This document shows, piece after piece, positions 4,605 through 9,994 of a stretch of DNA of 9,994 bases (position 1 is the stretch's first letter; each line of letters begins with the position of its first letter). Made by a program: the position numbers and the translations under genes. The stretch is taken from IMG/VR virus record IMGVR_UViG_2541047778_000017. The stretch is one strand, 5' to 3'. The notes beneath the pieces are model-generated. The model ran no database searches. It saw only the letters and a program-made list of their open reading frames with translations, and was not told where the DNA came from. This DNA comes from a virus. Taxonomy: Duplodnaviria; Heunggongvirae; Uroviricota; Caudoviricetes.

Positions 4605-5297
4605 TTAATTGTGTCGCTTAAGGGTCTGTGACTGACTGATTAAGACCTTTCCAAAGACCATAAACCGGTGTTCGTTTTCGCTGGTAATTCCCCATTCACG
4701 GTAAATCTGGTTATCAGAAATTACCAGTAGTTTGTCAGGTATCATTTGCAGTCGTTTGACATAAATTTTATCATCAAAACCAAACACATAGATACCATCC
4801 CCATCAAACTGATTGATACTGATATCAACGAAGATGAGATCTCCTGGCTCAATGGTTGGACACATACTGTCCCCACGAACGTTGATAACTTTAATGTGAT
4901 TGGCTGGTCGTCCTCCAAACATCGATACAGCATTATCAGTTATGTATTCAATGGCATGAATCACATCAATGACATCACCGCCCTGGATAAGGCCATTTCC
5001 CGCACTGACACTGACATCCAGCATTTCAATACGGAATACATCCTTCACCTGCGCAACATCCTCACCAGTACTGTTTTTACATACAGTATTACTTTTGAAG
5101 TCTGAGGTAAAGAGATCTGCAATATCAACACCTAAGCTCCTGGCAATATTACTCAGGGCTTGTTCAGTGAATTGTTTCTGCTTACCTGTTTCCAGGCGTG
5201 AGATATTCGCCGCATCCACTCCTATTGCTTCAGCGAGATCGGCGATTTTCATGTTCTTCGCCTGGCGAAGTTGTCTGACTCGATTTCCTATGCTCAT
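4605..5297 (-). CDS. phage repressor, cI/LexA-like: N-terminal HTH plus C-terminal S24 autopeptidase domain (230 aa)
   Basis: N-terminal HTH (VRQLRQAKNMKIADLAEAIGVDAANISRLETGKQ) and C-terminal S24 signatures (VRGDSMCPTI with the Ser nucleophile; IYVKRL with the Lys general base). Divergent from a cro-like gene across a 97-bp operator region. Confidence 0.9.
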   Translation of the reverse strand: MSIGNRVRQLRQAKNMKIADLAEAIGVDAANISRLETGKQKQFTEQALSNIARSLGVDIADLFTSDFKSNTVCKNSTGEDVAQVKDVFRIEMLDVSVSAGNGLIQGGDVIDVIHAIEYITDNAVSMFGGRPANHIKVINVRGDSMCPTIEPGDLIFVDISINQFDGDGIYVFGFDDKIYVKRLQMIPDKLLVISDNQIYREWGITSENEHRFMVFGKVLISQSQTLKRHN

Positions 5298-5655: not shown

Positions 5656-6205
5656 GCATCACTGGAAAGTGGAAAAACAACCTGAGTGGTACGTGAAAGC
5701 TGTCAGAAAAACTATCGCGGCATTGCCTGGGGGTTACGCTGAAGCTGCTGACTGGCTGGATGTAACAGAGAACGCTTTATTCAACCGCCTTCGTGCAGAT
5801 GGCGATCAGATTTTCCCGCTGGGATGGGCAATGATTTTGCAACGTGCTGGTGGAACTCACTTCATTGCTGACGCTGTGGCGCAGTCTGCAAATGGCGTCT
5901 TTGTGTCTCTTCCTGACGTCGAGGATGTGGACAACGCCGATATTAACCAGCGCCTGCTGGAAGTCATCGAACAGATCGGGAGTTACTCAAAGCAGATTCG
6001 TTCGGCAATCGAAGATGGGGTAGTGGAGCCACACGAGCAGACAGCAATTAATGATGAGTTGTATCTGTCAATTTCGAAGCTCCAGGAGCATGCAGCACTG
6101 GTCTACAAAATCTTCTGCGCTCCAGAAAAGAGTAACGCCCGCGAGTGTGCAGCTCCGGGCGTCGTGGCGTCGATTGCTTCTGGTTGTGGAGAAACTAACG
6201 CATGA
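5648..6205 (+). CDS. CII-like phage regulatory protein (phage 186 CII / CP76-type), 185 aa
   Basis: GTG start at 5648 with AGGAGG at 5636-5641 (6-nt spacing), overlapping the cro-like stop at 5653-5655. Position immediately after cro and overall sequence character recall the CP76-type CII family; this assignment is from memory only. Confidence 0.55.
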   Translation: MGKHHWKVEKQPEWYVKAVRKTIAALPGGYAEAADWLDVTENALFNRLRADGDQIFPLGWAMILQRAGGTHFIADAVAQSANGVFVSLPDVEDVDNADINQRLLEVIEQIGSYSKQIRSAIEDGVVEPHEQTAINDELYLSISKLQEHAALVYKIFCAPEKSNARECAAPGVVASIASGCGETNA

Positions 6206-6350
6206 ACAGTTTAACGGCAAATAACCGTTTGTCGCAACAGCTGGTGGTCAGCGTCGCTGAACACCTGTTGTTACGGCATGAATGCAGATTACCAAATCAC
6301 CTGGCTGTAAGTAACCACAGAGAACTTTACCTGACTGTGGGGGGCGAGTT

Positions 6351-6530
6351 GTGCAGGAACTTAACCGCTGGTTTCGTGACGGAAGAGGGCTTTATGTCCA
6401 TGTTATTCGTTGGGAGCCAGAAACACAGCGCGTTATCTATCTTCGCAAAGACTACCCGCATGAGTGCTTTAGTCCTTTGTGGAAATTCAGGCGTGATTTT
6501 GTTGAGTGTGAAGGACCACCAGCATATTGA
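6351..6530 (+). CDS. candidate small protein, 59 aa (VQELNRWFRDGRGLYVHVIRWEPETQRVIYLRKDYPHECFSPLWKFRRDFVECEGPPAY), GTG start
   Basis: Not in the ORF track. Alternate frame inside the long 6202..7353 ORF, bounded by TAA 6312-6314 and TGA 6528-6530. Its composition is protein-like (W, Y, mixed charge), unlike the overlapping long frame. G-rich stretch 6338-6343 could serve as an SD; a LexA-box-like palindrome lies 31 nt upstream. Confidence 0.3.
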   Translation: MQELNRWFRDGRGLYVHVIRWEPETQRVIYLRKDYPHECFSPLWKFRRDFVECEGPPAY

Positions 6531-6807
6531 TTCTGCAATTCCGGGACGTTACACTGCTCAGGCACCTTATAAAGCGGGTGCCGGGCGTGGAAACCCGAAA
6601 TTCAATATAGAGCACAACCGCGCTCATGCGGTTTTTTCGTGTCATGAGCATCGTTACGCCCAAATTATGGTGGGGCGTGCAGGGCCAACTTCGGTTGGGC
6701 CGGGTTCTATGTTGACCGGTATTTCCACCCCTGTACGTCTCACCACCTATATGGTCGTGGAAAGCCTTGGTGGTGAGTTCATTGAATTCAACATAGGGGC
6801 TGTCACC

Positions 6808-7353
6808 ATGACTACTCTCCCAACCCAATCTCACCCTGAAATCACGATTATCAATGGTCGCGTTGTTACCACATCTTTTGCAGTAGCTAATTACTTTACT
6901 AAACGGCATGAGCGGGTTTTAGATAGAATTAGAAACCTCGAATGTTCCGCTGAATTTACTGAACACAATTTTGTGTTAAGTGAATACACCGACGCATCAG
7001 GCCGCAAACTCCCTTGTTACCAAATCACCCGCGACGGTTTTGCGTTTCTTGCCATGGGCTTCACTGGTAAACGTGCTGCCCGGTTCAAAGAGGCATACAT
7101 AAATGCCTTTAACCAGATGGAAAAACTGCTTTCAAAGCCATCCACGCTGAGCGATGCCGCAGATAACGCCAGCGTGCTTTACTCCCACCTGTCGGTAATC
7201 CACAAGGTCTGGCTGCAGCAGCTTTATCCCATGTTGGCAAAAGCCGAATCCCCGCTGGCTGTAAGTCTGTATGACCGCATCAACGACGCGGCGCTACTGG
7301 CCAGTCTCATAAATTTGTCGCTGAACCCTTCAGAGGTAAGGGGGCGCAAATGA
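6808..7353 (+). CDS. Rha-family phage regulatory protein (181 aa from ATG 6808; the frame is open upstream to ATG 6202)
   Basis: MTTLPTQSHPEITIINGRVVTTSFAVANYFTKRHERVLDRIRNLECS...YQITRDGFAFLAMGFTGKRAARFKEAYINAFNQME matches my recollection of the Phage_pRha domain, which is normally N-terminal. AGGGG lies 8 nt upstream of ATG 6808. The 202 in-frame codons upstream are His/Ser/Arg/Gly-rich and poor in Asp/Lys, which argues against their being coding, although the ATG at 6202 overlaps the cII-like stop (ATGA). Confidence 0.65.
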   Translation: MTTLPTQSHPEITIINGRVVTTSFAVANYFTKRHERVLDRIRNLECSAEFTEHNFVLSEYTDASGRKLPCYQITRDGFAFLAMGFTGKRAARFKEAYINAFNQMEKLLSKPSTLSDAADNASVLYSHLSVIHKVWLQQLYPMLAKAESPLAVSLYDRINDAALLASLINLSLNPSEVRGRK

Positions 7354-7574
7354 TCCGGAATATTTTCAAACGGTTTACCAATCATACTTTCCGTTGTCCT
7401 CGTCCGGGTCAGTGGTACACCACGCCTGCAGGGCATGTTCTACGTGTTAGCCTGGTTGACCGTGAATGTCAGAAGGTGGTTTGTGAACCGCTGGGCCGTA
7501 ATTACCGCGTCAGTATGCCGCTTATAGCCTTTTGCTCCGGAAAAATGTTTAAGCGTCTGGGAGGTGTGGCGTGA
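7350..7574 (+). CDS. small hypothetical protein (74 aa)
   Basis: ATG 7350 overlaps the Rha stop (ATGA) with a G-rich SD (AGGTAAGGGGG) upstream; its stop overlaps the next GTG start (GTGA). No family recognised. Confidence 0.5.
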   Translation: MIRNIFKRFTNHTFRCPRPGQWYTTPAGHVLRVSLVDRECQKVVCEPLGRNYRVSMPLIAFCSGKMFKRLGGVA

Positions 7575-7870
7575 ACTGTTTTCAGTTTGTGTGCGGATGT
7601 GCTTTCGATAACCCGATTCAGCGCCTGATTATGTTGCGTGTTTTGATGTCGGGTTCTTCAGACGGTGAAGGCGAGAGAGTTATTGATCATCAGGTGCTTG
7701 CTGATTTCTGCTGTTGTTCTAAGCAAGCGATATTCAGGGAAACCCTGGCACTGGAAAGAGCTGGTTATCTTCATATCCGAAAAATTGCAACGCTTACTAT
7801 TGATGCAAAAGCCAGACTACAACCTGCGCGTGGCTACACAATTCTCATGCTGCGGAAGGAGGTTGTATGA
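7571..7870 (+). CDS. hypothetical protein (99 aa), possibly winged-helix
   Basis: GTG 7571 with GGAGG 7 nt upstream; stop TGA 7868-7870 overlaps the ATG of the replication gene (ATGA). The segment VLADFCCCSKQAIFRETLALERAGYLHIRK resembles a DNA-binding helix pair. Confidence 0.5.
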   Translation: MNCFQFVCGCAFDNPIQRLIMLRVLMSGSSDGEGERVIDHQVLADFCCCSKQAIFRETLALERAGYLHIRKIATLTIDAKARLQPARGYTILMLRKEVV

Positions 7871-8862
7871 GCCGTTACGCCCCCACACCGGAAGTTATGG
7901 CTATTGGTCAAATTAATATTTCCGGCAATGTTACACCTGCGACCTGGTGGAAATATATTCGACTACCCAGTGGGCGTCCGGATGCGACGGCTATCGCTCT
8001 GCTTTCAGAGATCGTTTACTGGTACCGCCCGACAGAGGTCAGGGATGAGCACACCGGAGCGTTGCTGGGATATCGCAAGCGTTTTCAGGGCGACAAACTG
8101 CAAAGAAGCTACCAGGCGTTTGCTGAGCAGTTTGGTTTCGGGAAAAGGGAAACCGCAGATGCGCTGAAGCGTCTGCGCGATGCAGGGTTTATTACTCTGG
8201 ATTTACGCACGGTGGAAATGCTCGATGGGGTGAAATGCAGCAATATTTTGTTTGTCGGGATCAACCCACAGGCAATTGCGGCCATCACCACACCTTCTTC
8301 TGTTTCGCCAGAAAGTAACAGCAATAATGCAATCAGCGATACAGCTATTACGTTAAAACGGAACACCCCCCGACGTCATAACGGAACAGGGGATACGCCG
8401 AATGTTGATACAAATACAGAGATTACTACAGAGATTACTACAGAGATTACAACGGAGACTAAAAACACTATTGGCGCATCCGCTGACGCGTCTGCACCAG
8501 CGCGTTCTGCCAGACAGGAATATTCACCGGAATTTGAACAGGCCTGGCAGGAATATCCCAAACGTGCTGGTGGTAATTCAAAATCCGCCGCTTTTAAAGC
8601 CTGGAAAGCCCGAATCAGGGAAGGTGTGACACCCGAAACCATGCTCGACGGTGTGAAACGCTATGCCGCCTGGGTGCGTGTCTCTGGAAATACCGGTACC
8701 CAGTTCGTGAAGCAGGCGTCGACGTTCTTTGGTCCGGATCGTCATTTCGAAGAATCCTGGGAAGTTCCTGCGGTATCTGCAGTCAGACGCGAGGACCCGT
8801 ACTTCAAAGCCAGTTACGACAACGTGGACTACAGCCAGATCCCGGCAGGATTCAGGGGGTGA
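7867..8862 (+). CDS. phage replication initiation / replisome-organizer protein (O-like N-terminal DNA-binding domain, DnaD-like C-terminal domain), 331 aa
   Basis: Perfect AGGAGG 4 nt upstream of ATG 7867. N-terminal winged-helix-like region (ALKRLRDAGFITLDLRT), a low-complexity linker encoded by tandem repeats (NTEITTEITTEITTETK), and a C-terminal EFEQAWQEYPKRAGG...KAWKARI...FFGPDRHFEESWE block that matches the pattern F..W..YP.K......A...W of DnaD-like/replisome-organizer C-terminal domains as I recall it. Confidence 0.7.
   Translation: MSRYAPTPEVMAIGQINISGNVTPATWWKYIRLPSGRPDATAIALLSEIVYWYRPTEVRDEHTGALLGYRKRFQGDKLQRSYQAFAEQFGFGKRETADALKRLRDAGFITLDLRTVEMLDGVKCSNILFVGINPQAIAAITTPSSVSPESNSNNAISDTAITLKRNTPRRHNGTGDTPNVDTNTEITTEITTEITTETKNTIGASADASAPARSARQEYSPEFEQAWQEYPKRAGGNSKSAAFKAWKARIREGVTPETMLDGVKRYAAWVRVSGNTGTQFVKQASTFFGPDRHFEESWEVPAVSAVRREDPYFKASYDNVDYSQIPAGFRG
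8416..8460. repeat. tandem 12-bp repeat (ACAGAGATTACT, about 3.75 copies) inside the replication initiator gene; candidate origin iterons
   Basis: ACAGAGATTACT at 8416-8427 and 8428-8439, ACAGAGATTACA at 8440-8451, partial ACGGAGACT at 8452-8460. A separate 9-bp direct repeat AACGGAACA occurs at 8356-8364 and 8379-8387, just upstream. Confidence 0.8.
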
Positions 8863-8864
8863 GC

Positions 8865-9194
8865 ATGAGTCTTTTGAATGACGTTCAGAAATTCATTGAA
8901 GCCCATCCGGGGTGTACTTCCGGAGACATTGCGGATGCTTTTGCTGGTTACTCACGGCAGCGCGTTCTGCAGTCAGCAAGCAAGTTACGTCAGAGTGGGC
9001 GTGTGGCTCACCGTTGTGAAGGAGATACACGCAGACATTTCCCACGCCTGACTGAGAGAGCGCAGGATCCGGAACCACAACCAGTTCGTGAAACCAGACC
9101 TGTGCGCAATTTCTATGTCGGCACTAACGACCCGCGGGTGATTTTGTGCCTGACCCGCCAGGCGGAAAAACTGGTCAGGGAGATGGCGGCATGA
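8865..9194 (+). CDS. hypothetical protein (109 aa from ATG 8865; alternative GTG at 8859 overlaps the upstream stop)
   Basis: GGGGG at 8855-8859 lies 5 nt upstream of ATG 8865; its stop TGA 9192-9194 overlaps the next ATG (ATGA). N-terminal region (FIEAHPGCTSGDIADAFAGYSRQRVLQSASKLRQSGRV) looks winged-helix-like. No family recognised. Confidence 0.5.
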   Translation: MSLLNDVQKFIEAHPGCTSGDIADAFAGYSRQRVLQSASKLRQSGRVAHRCEGDTRRHFPRLTERAQDPEPQPVRETRPVRNFYVGTNDPRVILCLTRQAEKLVREMAA

Positions 9195-9517
9195 CGACGT
9201 TAACTCAATGCCAGCAGCAGGTGCTGGATATGCTGATTTCTTATCAGAAAGAACGTGGCTTCCCGCCAACCAATCAGGAGGTGGCAACCATGCTGGGATA
9301 CCGTTCAGTGAATGCAGCGGTGGAGCATCTTCGCGCACTGGAGAAAAAAGGCGTCATCACGATAAAGCGTGGCGTGGCCCGGGGCATCACGCTTCATACC
9401 GCGGTGAAGGACGACGACAGCGAGGCGGTCGGGATTATCCGCTCACTGCTTGCCGGTGAGGAAAACGCAAGGCTGCGTGCAACCCACTGGTTACATGAGA
9501 GGGGCCTGAAAGTATGA
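9191..9517 (+). CDS. LexA N-terminal DNA-binding-domain protein lacking the S24 peptidase domain (108 aa)
   Basis: MTTLTQCQQQVLDMLISYQKERGFPPTNQEVATMLGYRSVNAAVEHLRALEKKGVITIKRGVARGITL aligns by eye with the E. coli LexA N-terminus (LT.RQQEV...I......G.PPT..EIA..LG.RS.NAA.EHL.AL.RKGVI......SRGI.L). No Ser/Lys peptidase motifs follow. GGAG 7-10 nt upstream of ATG 9191. Confidence 0.7.
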   Translation: MTTLTQCQQQVLDMLISYQKERGFPPTNQEVATMLGYRSVNAAVEHLRALEKKGVITIKRGVARGITLHTAVKDDDSEAVGIIRSLLAGEENARLRATHWLHERGLKV

Positions 9518-9922: not shown

Positions 9923-9994
9923 ATGAATAATCTGATGGTCATTGATGGTATTGAAGTTCGTCGTGATGCTTATGGGCGTTACAGCCTGAACGAT
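9923..9994 (+). CDS. 5' end of a gene truncated by the window edge (MNNLMVIDGIEVRRDAYGRYSLND...), possibly a KilA-N-type protein
   Basis: Strong RBS AGAGGAGAA 9 nt upstream of ATG 9923. The opening motif (IDG..VR.D..GRY.LNDL) resembles the start of KilA-N-type prophage proteins as I recall them. Only 24 codons are in the window. Confidence 0.35.
   Translation, partial: MNNLMVIDGIEVRRDAYGRYSLND

What the first reader, a model, noticed from the sequence alone, without database searches (positions are those of the whole stretch)
8350..8460. Iteron-like direct repeats inside the replication initiator gene: candidate origin
A 12-bp unit ACAGAGATTACT is tandemly repeated about 3.75 times (8416-8460) and a 9-bp unit AACGGAACA occurs twice (8356-8364, 8379-8387), all in the linker between the N-terminal DNA-binding domain and the C-terminal domain of the O-like protein. 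In lambda the origin iterons lie inside gene O at the equivalent position. The repeats also encode a low-complexity TEIT linker whose copy number may vary between strains.
Basis: partly seen in the sequence, partly recalled or inferred. Interest (0 to 1): 0.45.

Follow-up and report, generated by a model that had tools for sequence, protein, structure and literature searches.

The report
Origin inside a prophage initiator gene
The repeats are real and very probably form this E. coli prophage's replication origin, and the 12-base repeat is a DNA element kept almost unchanged inside related initiator genes of phages and plasmids from many bacterial phyla.

Summary
They lie in gene 7867-8862, in the part that encodes a predicted disordered linker between a confident winged-helix N-domain and the C-domain.

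Comparison with about 150 distinct relatives shows one layout throughout. After the N-domain coding region come 2-7 lineage-specific, semi-palindromic iterons at about 22-bp phasing. In the window these are 8349-8364, 8372-8387 and a weak third at 8394-8409. Next comes a 12-bp tandem array, TACAGAGATTAC, at 8415-8462.

The array is conserved as DNA, not as peptide. Its synonymous sites are fixed (ACA 50/50, GAG 36 against GAA 1), whereas they are randomised at the family's most conserved peptide. In some relatives the same DNA is read in another frame.

The array follows the N-domain type, not the C-domain or the host. SfV-type initiators share this C-domain but carry their own 12-mer.

Copy number varies from about 1.7 to 4.7 among near-identical prophages.

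Best reading: a lambda/RepA_N-style origin. The 16-mers are the initiator-binding iterons. The 12-mer array is the adjacent opening or strand-capture element, like the 13-mers of oriC and RK2. Nothing here has been tested by experiment.

The parts
7867..8862 (+). Replication initiator gene (331 aa). It codes an N-terminal winged-helix domain, a disordered linker that contains the origin, and a YfdO/SfV-type C-domain.
   Evidence: ORF. phrog_270 'replication initiation protein', E 7e-77. No Pfam or NCBIfam family. AF2 domain limits.
7867..8292 (+). Coding region of the N-domain (aa 1-142), with the hallmark LSEIVYWYRP. It is a winged helix of the RepA_N / DnaD-NTD structural type.
8349..8364 (+). 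Iteron 1, TACGTTAAAACGGAAC. It is an imperfect dyad (TTACGT / ACGGAA) around an A-tract.
   Evidence: It aligns with the TACGTTGAAACGTAAC iterons of Yersinia, Serratia, Xenorhabdus and Acinetobacter phage IME-AB2. It is invariant in 80 close relatives.
8372..8387 (+). Iteron 2, GACGTCATAACGGAAC, 23 bp after iteron 1. It is read in a different reading frame (RHNGT instead of TLKRNT).
   Evidence: A 23-bp spacing is not a multiple of 3, so this is a DNA repeat and not a peptide repeat.
8394..8409 (+). Degenerate iteron 3, TACGCCGAATGTTGAT, 22 bp after iteron 2.
   Evidence: It aligns column for column with the third iteron of relatives and resembles L089/L097 ACGCCGAAAAGT / ACGCCGAAACGG. It is weak on its own.
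8410..8462 (+). Conserved lead-in (ACAAA) plus the 12-bp tandem array: TACAGAGATTAC x3 and a degenerate unit AACGGAGACTAA. Proposed role: duplex-opening / strand-capture element of the origin.
   Evidence: TRF. Synonymous sites are fixed across phyla against a randomised control. Frame-independent. It is the least stable 45-bp duplex window in the gene. It has no secondary structure as a single strand. Copy number ranges from 1.7 to 4.7.
8463..8862 (+). Exchangeable C-module: the rest of the linker plus the C-domain and tail. The mosaic junction lies directly after the array.
   Evidence: Stx2a-phage O genes match only 8415-8760. SfV/mEp460/cdtI match from 8468 or 8513 onwards. L316 joins an SfV-type N-module to ACTATTGGCGCATCCGCTGA.

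Best explanation
Region 8349-8462 is the replication origin of this lambdoid prophage, embedded in the linker-coding part of its own initiator gene.

Proposed mechanism (inferred, by analogy with lambda O and RepA_N Rep proteins):
1. Dimers of the initiator's N-terminal winged-helix domain bind the three semi-palindromic 16-bp iterons, which are spaced 22-23 bp apart (two helical turns).
2. The bound dimers oligomerise and bend the DNA.
3. This strains the adjacent 12-bp tandem array (TACAGAGATTAC)n, which is the least stable duplex in the gene and unstructured as a single strand.
4. The array opens, and one strand, or the distorted duplex, is probably held in a sequence-specific way by the conserved half of the N-domain.
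5. The exchangeable C-domain recruits the host or phage helicase and primase machinery.

Shown here:
- the anatomy of the region;
- DNA-level purifying selection on the array, independent of reading frame;
- lineage-specific iterons next to a universal array;
- co-inheritance of N-domain, iterons and array as one module.

Inferred: binding, melting, strand capture, and which part of the protein reads the array.

For: 2. Iterons. In 69 distinct relatives there are 2-7 semi-palindromic repeats, often around an A-tract, at 21-24 bp phasing. Their sequence differs by lineage (TACGTTGAAACGTAA, TACAAAATTTTGTA, CATGTAATCAATTACATG, CTCCCGAAAAAACGGGAG and others). This fits the published description of RepA_N iterons (PMC7145576). 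The window's copies are read in two different frames.

3. The array is selected as DNA.
- Codon counts: Thr ACA 50/50 against a 34% background; GAG 36 against GAA 1, where the background is 62% GAA; AAG 9 against AAA 0.
- Control: in the same genes the codons of the invariant peptide LSEIVYWYRP are randomised.
- In several Lachnospiraceae the same DNA is read in frame +1, giving YRDY/NRDY peptides.
- The motif occurs only 460-700 nt after the gene start, on the + strand.
- At least 97 of 119 representatives of different 50%-identity clusters carry it.

4. The array follows the N-module and not the C-domain or the host. It is joined to at least five unrelated C-domains. It is also found behind a distantly related second N-domain family, the Stx2a-phage O type. 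SfV/mEp460/cdtI initiators share the window's C-domain, downstream genes and host, yet have other iterons and a different 12-mer, GAACCAGTCAAW.

5. Physical properties. The 45-bp window at 8405 has the lowest duplex stability in the gene (-49.7 against a mean of -60.7 kcal/mol, sd 5.1). GC is 35%. The single strand is unstructured.

6. Precedent. An initiator that opens an adjacent A+T-rich DUE and captures one strand is the general theme of origin opening. The DUEs of oriC and RK2 are 13-mer repeats whose sequence and number matter (PMC5043065). Two iterons plus the AT-rich tract suffice for unwinding in lambda, and O binds AT-rich ssDNA (PMC7466680).
Against: - There is no experimental evidence for binding, melting or origin activity in any member of this family.
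- The window has only two good iterons plus one weak one.
- The array is only moderately A+T-rich (33-35% GC) and ranks about 250th of 9949 windows for instability across the whole 10-kb window.
- A 12-bp period is unusual for dsDNA-bound iterons, but it does not prove a DUE role.
- Copy number of the array varies freely, so exact geometry is not critical.
- No helicase-loader gene follows the initiator in the window, although viable phages SfV and mEp460 have the same layout.
- The prophage itself may be defective.
Confidence: 0.65

Rival explanations
1. The 12-mer units are themselves the primary double-stranded binding sites (true iterons) of the initiator. The dyad 16-mers would then be auxiliary sites, for example for autoregulation, handcuffing or another protein.
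For: The array is the most conserved DNA in the region and co-occurs with the most conserved part of the N-domain (invariant residues cluster in aa 10-82). It travels with the N-module. An unrelated N-domain type carries its own 12-mer.
Against: - Initiator specificity normally diverges together with its sites. Here the array is identical in lineages whose N-domains are only 35-45% identical, and in a second family at about 18% identity. The dyad repeats are what diverge.
- The dyad repeats have the published iteron anatomy: semi-palindromes around an A-tract with two-turn phasing (PMC7145576, PMC7466680).
- A 12-bp spacing leaves little room for winged-helix dimers.
- Copy number varies from 1.7 to 4.7 among near-identical prophages.
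Confidence: 0.2
2. The array is conserved because a host component or an RNA-level signal reads it. Candidates are primase start sites, another universal DNA-binding protein, or an mRNA element that controls translation of the initiator.
For: The motif is the same from Proteobacteria to Bacillota, Chloroflexota and Actinomycetota, as expected for a universal partner. Each unit contains CTG on the bottom strand and TTA/CTA on the top strand. From my own knowledge these are DnaG-preferred trinucleotides. pSK41 Rep binds DnaG (PMC5703833).
Against: - In the same host, with the same C-domain and the same downstream genes, SfV-type initiators use a different 12-mer.
- There is no Rfam family and no predicted structure.
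- A codon-specific RNA effect is excluded by the frame +1 variants.
- By eye I found no match to the DnaA box, IHF or -10 consensus.
- Trinucleotides are too short to explain conservation over 24 bp.
Confidence: 0.07
3. The array is kept mainly as a shared boundary sequence that promotes homologous exchange of N- and C-modules between mobile elements, and has no role in initiation.
For: Mosaic junctions lie exactly at or just after the array: Stx2a O genes match from 8415, SfV-type genes from 8468, and L316 is a hybrid. At least five unrelated C-domains follow it.
Against: - Recombination benefit alone does not maintain 24 bp at synonymous sites across phyla whose DNA is otherwise saturated.
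- The array keeps a fixed distance from the last iteron.
- Junctions are after the array, so it always stays with the N-module.
Confidence: 0.05
4. The repeats are an ordinary coding tandem repeat (slippage-generated VNTR) in a disordered linker plus a chance 9-mer repeat, with no function at the DNA level.
For: The array is in frame and encodes low-complexity TEIT in a predicted disordered region. Copy number is polymorphic. A 9-mer repeated within 50 bp is expected about twice per 10 kb.
Against: - Synonymous sites are fixed against a randomised control.
- The same DNA is read in another frame in some relatives.
- The motif is present in about 80-90% of a family of roughly 2000 clusters.
- The 16-mers are read in two frames and conserved in other genera.
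Confidence: 0.03

Closest known systems
Bacteriophage lambda ori / O protein (also the Stx phages 933W and P27)
   Same: The origin lies in the middle of the initiator gene, in linker-coding DNA between a DNA-binding N-domain and a partner-recruiting C-domain. The iterons have internal dyad symmetry at 20-24 bp phasing. They are followed on the 3' side by a less stable tract where opening occurs. Two iterons plus that tract are the minimal unwinding unit (PMC7466680).
   Different: The N-domain is not detectably homologous to lambda O (hhalign probability 0.2%; no Phage_rep_O hit). The window has no P-like gene next door. In place of an irregular purine-rich A+T tract there is a regular 12-bp tandem whose sequence is conserved across phyla.
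RepA_N plasmid and satellite initiators (pSK41 and pTZ2162 Rep; Vibrio PLE RepA)
DUE 13-mer repeats of oriC and of RK2 oriV (and, more loosely, DnaA-trios)
   Same: Short tandem repeats lie directly beside the initiator-binding sites. They have lower duplex stability. In the known cases their sequence, number and arrangement matter, and the initiator captures one specific strand (PMC5043065).
   Different: The period is 12 rather than 13 (or 3). The content is only 65-67% A+T. The array lies inside a coding region. It is conserved far more widely than any known plasmid DUE. The initiator is a winged-helix protein and not an AAA+ protein. ssDNA binding has not been tested.
SfV / mEp460 / cdtI / CPS-53 YfdO-type replication proteins of E. 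coli phages
   Same: They share the window's C-domain, tail and downstream genes (PerC-like, LexA-like, RusA). The layout is also the same: five to eight 21-22 bp iterons, then a 12-bp tandem of 2.5 copies, all in linker-coding DNA.
   Different: The N-domain is unrelated (HTH_36-like). The iterons differ (GGTAGTGCAGGAGATTCAC), and so does the 12-mer (GAACCAGTCAAW).

Membership tests
Lambdoid O-type origin (ori inside gene O) | The origin lies within the initiator gene, between the N-domain and C-domain coding parts | tested here: met
   The repeats at 8349-8462 code residues 162-199 of the disordered linker, between the N-domain (aa 1-142) and the C-domain.
Lambdoid O-type origin (ori inside gene O) | Several dyad-symmetric iterons at about two-turn phasing | tested here: met
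   Three boxes at 8349, 8372 and 8394 with 23 and 22 bp spacing. The first is a 5/6 dyad and the third is weak. Relatives have 2-7 clear semi-palindromes. Lambda's spacings are 20, 24 and 23 bp.
Lambdoid O-type origin (ori inside gene O) | An A+T-rich, easily melted tract directly 3' of the iterons | tested here: met
   The array is 33-35% GC and is the least stable 45-bp window in the gene. It is not extreme within the whole 10-kb window.
Lambdoid O-type origin (ori inside gene O) | The initiator is homologous to lambda O (Pfam Phage_rep_O) | tested here: not met
   No Pfam hit at E<=0.01. hhalign of family profile A4 against the lambda O N-half gives probability 0.2%. There is only a weak phrog_391 'O-like' hit over aa 73-213.
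Lambdoid O-type origin (ori inside gene O) | An adjacent P-type or DnaC-type helicase-loader gene | tested here: not met
   The next genes are PerC-like, LexA-DBD-only and RusA. Relatives with the same N-module (L003-L005) do have DnaC-like and DnaB-like genes.
Lambdoid O-type origin (ori inside gene O) | The initiator binds the iterons and the fragment supports initiator-dependent replication | not testable with these tools
   This needs EMSA or footprinting and a plasmid replication assay.
RepA_N-type initiator with an internal origin | Sequence membership in Pfam RepA_N (PF06970) | tested here: not met
   No hit for the window protein or for ten diverse relatives, even at E<=0.1.
RepA_N-type initiator with an internal origin | N-terminal winged-helix domain of the RepA_N / DnaD-NTD fold | tested here: inconclusive
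RepA_N-type initiator with an internal origin | Semi-palindromic iterons converging on an A-tract, located centrally in the rep gene | tested here: met
   The definition is taken from PMC7145576 and PMC5703833.
RepA_N-type initiator with an internal origin | Conserved NTD, a dispensable linker encoded by the origin, and a variable host-specific CTD | tested here: met
   The linker has pLDDT <50. At least five unrelated C-domains (DUF6017, Phg_2220_C, YfdO-type, DnaD-like and others) follow the same N-module. Whether the linker peptide is dispensable was not tested.
DUE repeat element (oriC / RK2 13-mer type) | Tandem short repeats directly beside the initiator sites, with low helical stability | tested here: met
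DUE repeat element (oriC / RK2 13-mer type) | The site of initiator-dependent strand opening, with sequence-specific capture of one strand | not testable with these tools
   This needs KMnO4 or P1 footprinting and ssDNA-binding assays. Indirect support: DNA-level conservation that follows the N-domain type.
Plain coding VNTR in a disordered linker | Conservation, if any, is at peptide level only, and synonymous sites drift freely | tested here: not met
   Synonymous sites are fixed while the control peptide's codons are randomised. The DNA is conserved across reading frames.

The most novel reading that the evidence does not exclude
The tandem TACAGAGATTAC array is a previously undescribed, pan-bacterial origin element. 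In this reading it is the phage and plasmid counterpart of the oriC 13-mers or DnaA-trios. The conserved aromatic half of a large winged-helix initiator superfamily (motifs P..WW and IVYWYRP) would read it in a sequence-specific way to open DNA next to lineage-specific iterons. If so, a single motif would pinpoint the origins of thousands of phages, phage-plasmids and other mobile elements. It would also make directly testable how RepA_N-like initiators, which have no ATPase, melt DNA.
Probability: 0.4. Interest if true: 0.8.

Novelty: new variant of a known kind. Interest (0 to 1): 0.62.

Why it matters
An origin inside an initiator gene is textbook for lambda and for RepA_N plasmids, so the window by itself is an ordinary member of that design.

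What is not ordinary is the 12-bp array. It is held fixed at synonymous sites, and across reading frames, in a family of about 2000 clusters that has no Pfam model. The family spans Proteobacteria, Bacillota, Actinomycetota, Chloroflexota, Cyanobacteria and others. A distantly related second family carries the same array, and an unrelated initiator type carries its own 12-mer in the same position.

This suggests a general two-part origin grammar: variable iterons for specificity and a conserved 12-mer tandem for opening.

Possible uses:
- a sequence signature for predicting origins in uncultivated phages and plasmids;
- a handle on how ATPase-less winged-helix initiators open DNA, which the literature states is unknown for RepA_N proteins (PMC7145576);
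- a caution that 'low-complexity linkers' in such proteins are shadows of DNA elements.

Tried and rejected
1. First working idea: the array belongs to the C-module, because Stx2a-phage O genes match the window only from 8415 onwards. Rejected. The array precedes at least five unrelated C-domains and is absent from SfV-type genes that share the window's C-domain.

2. Peptide-level conservation of TEIT. Rejected by the codon counts and their control and by the frame +1 variants.

3. Homology to lambda O. hhalign probability is 0.2%.

4. Pfam, NCBIfam and a PDB sequence search for the N-domain gave only sub-threshold generic wHTH hits.

5. Rfam found nothing in the region. ssDNA folding gave z = -0.47. 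The promoter and terminator scan found nothing at the repeats.

6. By eye, the unit does not resemble a DnaA box, an IHF site or a -10 hexamer.

7. Literature searches for the 12-mer, its complement and the peptide signatures found only irrelevant primer matches. Concept searches found no description of this family's origin.

8. I tried to find a plasmid on which the family gene is the only rep gene. Vagococcus pBN31-16k also carries another rep gene, so this was inconclusive. The Protochlamydia plasmid copy shows no array at <=5 of 24 mismatches.

9. Resemblance between the lambda A+T-rich tract and the array (the words AGATTAT and CAGAGAAT) is too vague to claim homology.

10. The information-content profile is biased, because the sequences were anchored on the motif. 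I did not use it as evidence of conservation.
Full report
CONTEXT

The window is a lambdoid E. coli prophage. Its replication region (7571-8862) is 100% identical to that of a prophage at the argU tRNA / intD site of strain HS13-1, which has one extra gene further downstream.

It carries a cI-like repressor, a cII-like gene, an Ash/Rha antirepressor region and a 99-aa ORF. These are followed by ORF 7867-8862, a PerC-like gene, a LexA DNA-binding-domain-only gene and RusA.

ORF 7867-8862 (331 aa) matches phrog_270 'replication initiation protein' (E 7e-77). It has no Pfam or NCBIfam family.

AlphaFold2 gives three regions:
- a confident N-domain, aa 1-142, pLDDT >90;
- a disordered linker, aa 143-218, pLDDT <50;
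- a helical C-domain of low confidence.

OBSERVATION

TRF reports one array at 8415-8458 with period 12, 3.7 copies and 93% matches. ACAGAGATTACT is exact at 8416 and 8428 and has one mismatch at 8440.

The two copies extend to 16-mers that match at 14 of 16 positions and lie 23 bp apart. The degenerate 16-mer has 0.27 expected matches, and no shuffle of 200 reached the observed count.

Because 23 is not a multiple of 3, the two 16-mers are read in different frames (TLKRNT and RHNGT). They are therefore a DNA repeat and not a peptide repeat.

CLOSE RELATIVES

Eighty IMG/VR loci have N-domains 97-100% identical to the window's. Their linker DNA is almost invariant, except that the array has about 1.7, 2.7 (the majority), 3.7 (the window and 13 others) or 4.7 copies (alignment).

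The same N-domain, iterons and array also occur with another C-terminal tail, followed by DnaC-like and DnaB-like genes.

THE FAMILY

The N-domain (hallmark LSEIVYWYRP) defines a large family. phmmer against 1.84 billion representatives finds 1971 clusters at E<=1e-10.

Eighty genomic loci were recovered. They come from:
- Enterobacterales, Marinomonas and Acinetobacter;
- Bacillota: Bacillaceae, Lachnospiraceae, Syntrophomonas and Caldanaerobacter;
- Actinomycetota, Chloroflexota, Atribacterota, Thermodesulfobacteriota and cyanobacteria.

Isolated phages of Acinetobacter, Bacillus, Geobacillus and Eggerthella carry the family. Plasmids carry it too.

After the N-domain nearly all members show repeated peptides such as DVTPPTLKRxT. 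These are followed by T(Y/N)TE(I/N)TTE(I/T)T, and then by at least five unrelated C-domains, including DUF6017 and Phg_2220_C.

KEY TEST: DNA OR PEPTIDE?

I anchored 50 distinct genes on the peptide only, which leaves synonymous positions free. The codons of the run are nevertheless fixed:
- Thr is ACA in 50 of 50 genes; the background in the same genes is 34%.
- Glu is GAG 36 times and GAA once; the background is 62% GAA.
- Lys is AAG 9 times and AAA never; the background is 65% AAA.
- The next Thr is ACT in 32 of 44, and the one after it ACA in 40 of 40.
- At the following position there are 28 GAG and 11 AAG, with no GAA or AAA.

As a control I looked at the invariant peptide LSEIVYWYRP in the same genes. 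There Leu and Ser each use six codons, and Pro and Arg are evenly spread. Synonymous sites are therefore saturated in this sequence set.

In several Lachnospiraceae the same DNA (TACAGAGAWTAC) is read one frame over, as YREYNRD or YRDYHRDY.

The motif occurs only 460-700 nt after the N-domain start, on the coding strand, and nowhere else in the 4.4-kb loci.

Of 119 representatives from different 50%-identity clusters, 93 carry the frame-0 signature and 4 the frame+1 type. Most of the rest show degenerate versions.

The array is therefore selected as DNA, and the TEIT peptide is a by-product.

ITERONS

The 180 nt before the array contain 2-7 semi-palindromic repeats at 21-24 bp phasing in 69 distinct loci. 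Their sequence differs by lineage:
- TACGTTGAAACGTAA in Serratia and Yersinia; the same type occurs in Xenorhabdus and in Acinetobacter phage IME-AB2;
- the perfect palindrome TACAAAATTTTGTA, six to seven copies, in Coprococcus;
- CATGTAATCAATTACATG in Syntrophomonas;
- lambda-like CTCCCGAAAAAACGGGAG and TCCCCGAAATCGGGGA in Lachnospiraceae;
- CTATGGCGnAAAAACGCCATAG in Slackia.

This is the anatomy published for RepA_N iterons: semi-palindromic direct repeats converging on a poly-A tract (PMC7145576). It is also the anatomy of lambda's iterons (PMC7466680).

Alignment A5 places the window's three boxes column for column on three iterons of Yersinia, Serratia, Xenorhabdus and phage IME-AB2, followed by the array. 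The boxes are:
- 8349-8364, TACGTTAAAACGGAAC;
- 8372-8387, GACGTCATAACGGAAC;
- 8394-8409, TACGCCGAATGTTGAT (weak).

WHAT DOES THE ARRAY TRAVEL WITH?

A scan of IMG/VR for two exact units found the array behind the YWYRP N-domain in 61 of 80 loci. In others it lies behind a second N-domain family (PIAYYP...LFYW...LEHRIYY), which is the Stx2a-phage 'O' type of locus L002. That family is distantly related (hhalign E 9e-5, probability 60%). Each of its members has its own lambda-like iterons.

The replication proteins of SfV, mEp460 and cdtI behave differently. They share the window's C-domain, tail, downstream genes and host. Yet they have an unrelated HTH N-domain, five to eight 21-22 bp iterons (GGTAGTGCAGGAGATTCAC) and a different 12-bp tandem, GAACCAGTCAAW, in 2.5 copies. 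That 12-mer is also kept in a diverged relative with other iterons (L308).

Mosaic junctions fall immediately after the array.

So N-domain, iterons and 12-mer array form one co-inherited module. The array's sequence follows the N-domain superfamily and not the C-domain or the host.

PHYSICAL PROPERTIES

- The array region is the least stable 45-bp duplex window in the gene (-49.7 against a mean of -60.7 kcal/mol, sd 5.1).
- It is about 35% GC with a positive AT skew.
- As a single strand it is unstructured (z = -0.47).
- There is no Rfam family there.

STRUCTURE AND KNOWN FAMILIES

There is no sequence-level link to RepA_N or to lambda O.

The published picture of pSK41 Rep fits the anatomy found here. 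Its NTD binds Rep boxes that lie centrally in rep. Its linker is encoded by the origin and is dispensable. Its CTD is host-specific and binds DnaG. In pPR9 the NTD and origin have been swapped naturally as one unit (PMC5703833).

The general model of origin opening is that an initiator bound at several sites stresses and opens an adjacent A+T-rich element and captures one strand. In oriC and RK2 the DUE consists of 13-mer repeats whose sequence and number matter (PMC5043065). In lambda, two iterons plus the AT-rich tract suffice for unwinding, and O binds AT-rich ssDNA (PMC7466680).

INTERPRETATION

The best-supported reading is that 8349-8462 is the prophage origin. The 16-mers are the specificity iterons bound by the winged helix. 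The 12-mer array is the adjacent opening or strand-capture element, read by the conserved part of the N-domain.

The invariant residues cluster in aa 10-82, while the wHTH region at about aa 76-121 is more variable. Assigning the two DNA elements to the two halves of the N-domain is an inference from this pattern.

The main rival is that the 12-mers are the true double-stranded binding sites. This is less likely because the array does not diverge with the initiator whereas the dyad repeats do. Only binding experiments can settle it.

NOVELTY

The design itself is known. The family's N-domain has no Pfam model. I found no description of the conserved 12-mer array, although only an open-access library could be searched.

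I therefore rate it a new variant of a known kind. The window itself is ordinary. The cross-phylum DNA element is the interesting part.

Noticed in passing
window 6562-6638 and 6663-6750 (+): Rfam gathering-level hits to the isrK Hfq-binding RNA (61.6 bits) and the C4 antisense RNA (82.4 bits). Both lie inside the long ORF 6202-7353, which carries Ash and Rha domains. This looks like a P1/P7-type c4-antirepressor control region, and the 383-aa ORF call may be too long at its 5' end.
   Followed up: no
window 7571-7870 (+): A 99-aa ORF whose stop overlaps the initiator's start codon (ATGA). It matches only the N-terminal 40% of phrog_4617 'replication initiation protein' (E 4e-29). It is present in L003 and L004 but absent in L005. 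It could be a small accessory wHTH protein or a remnant of another initiator.
   Followed up: partly
window 8366-8371 (C6 tract between iterons 1 and 2); A5 run at 8463-8467: Database relatives carry frameshifts at these homopolymers. P0001 and P0004 are -1 at the C tract, L198 has C7, and P0003 shifts at the A run. P0005 (a cluster of 74 member sequences) has a 14-nt deletion. All of these yield N-domain-only proteins with out-of-frame tails such as MLIQIQRLLQRL or RDYYRDYNGD. They could be decay in cryptic prophages, phase variation or sequencing errors. This is unresolved.
   Followed up: partly
window 8859-9517 (+): No helicase-loader or helicase gene follows the initiator. Instead there is a PerC-like gene and a 109-aa protein that consists only of a LexA DNA-binding domain (PF01726, no S24 peptidase domain). 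The viable phages SfV and mEp460 have the same order, so this C-domain presumably recruits host machinery directly.
   Followed up: partly
L291 976-1196 (phage cdtI); L287 2300-2460 (mEp460): The SfV-type replication genes hold their own internal origin-like region: 7.7 copies of a 21-bp iteron and then GAACCAGTCAAA in 2.5 copies (period 12). The region encodes GGSAGDS... and EPVKEPVNEP. It has the same grammar as the window's origin but a different vocabulary.
   Followed up: partly
window 8469-8491; L002 2549-2571; L316: ACTATTGGCGCATCCGCTGACGC, directly after the array, is shared by initiators with three different N-modules (this family, the Stx2a-phage O type and an SfV-type hybrid). It marks the recombination boundary between the N- and C-modules.
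   Followed up: partly
L286 520-575 (lambda ori A+T-rich tract): The lambda tract after iteron 4 contains AGATTAT (read as KDY) and TCAGAGAAT (read as SEN). These are reminiscent of the array units AGATTAC and ACAGAGAAT, but there is no regular 12-bp period. This may be coincidence or a very old relationship.
   Followed up: no
P0020; plasmid hits H136-H141 (Candidatus Megaera/Megaira); P0054, P0071, P0101: Some family members have a DnaA_N domain (PF11638) fused in front of the N-domain and are annotated 'DnaA-like'. Others contain two tandem copies of the N-domain.
   Followed up: no
window 4948-4977 and 9933-9954: Two further short tandem repeats were reported by TRF. One has period 9 and 3.3 copies, inside the cI-like repressor gene on the minus strand. 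The other has period 10 and 2.3 copies, at the start of the last ORF. Both have low scores and were not examined.
   Followed up: no
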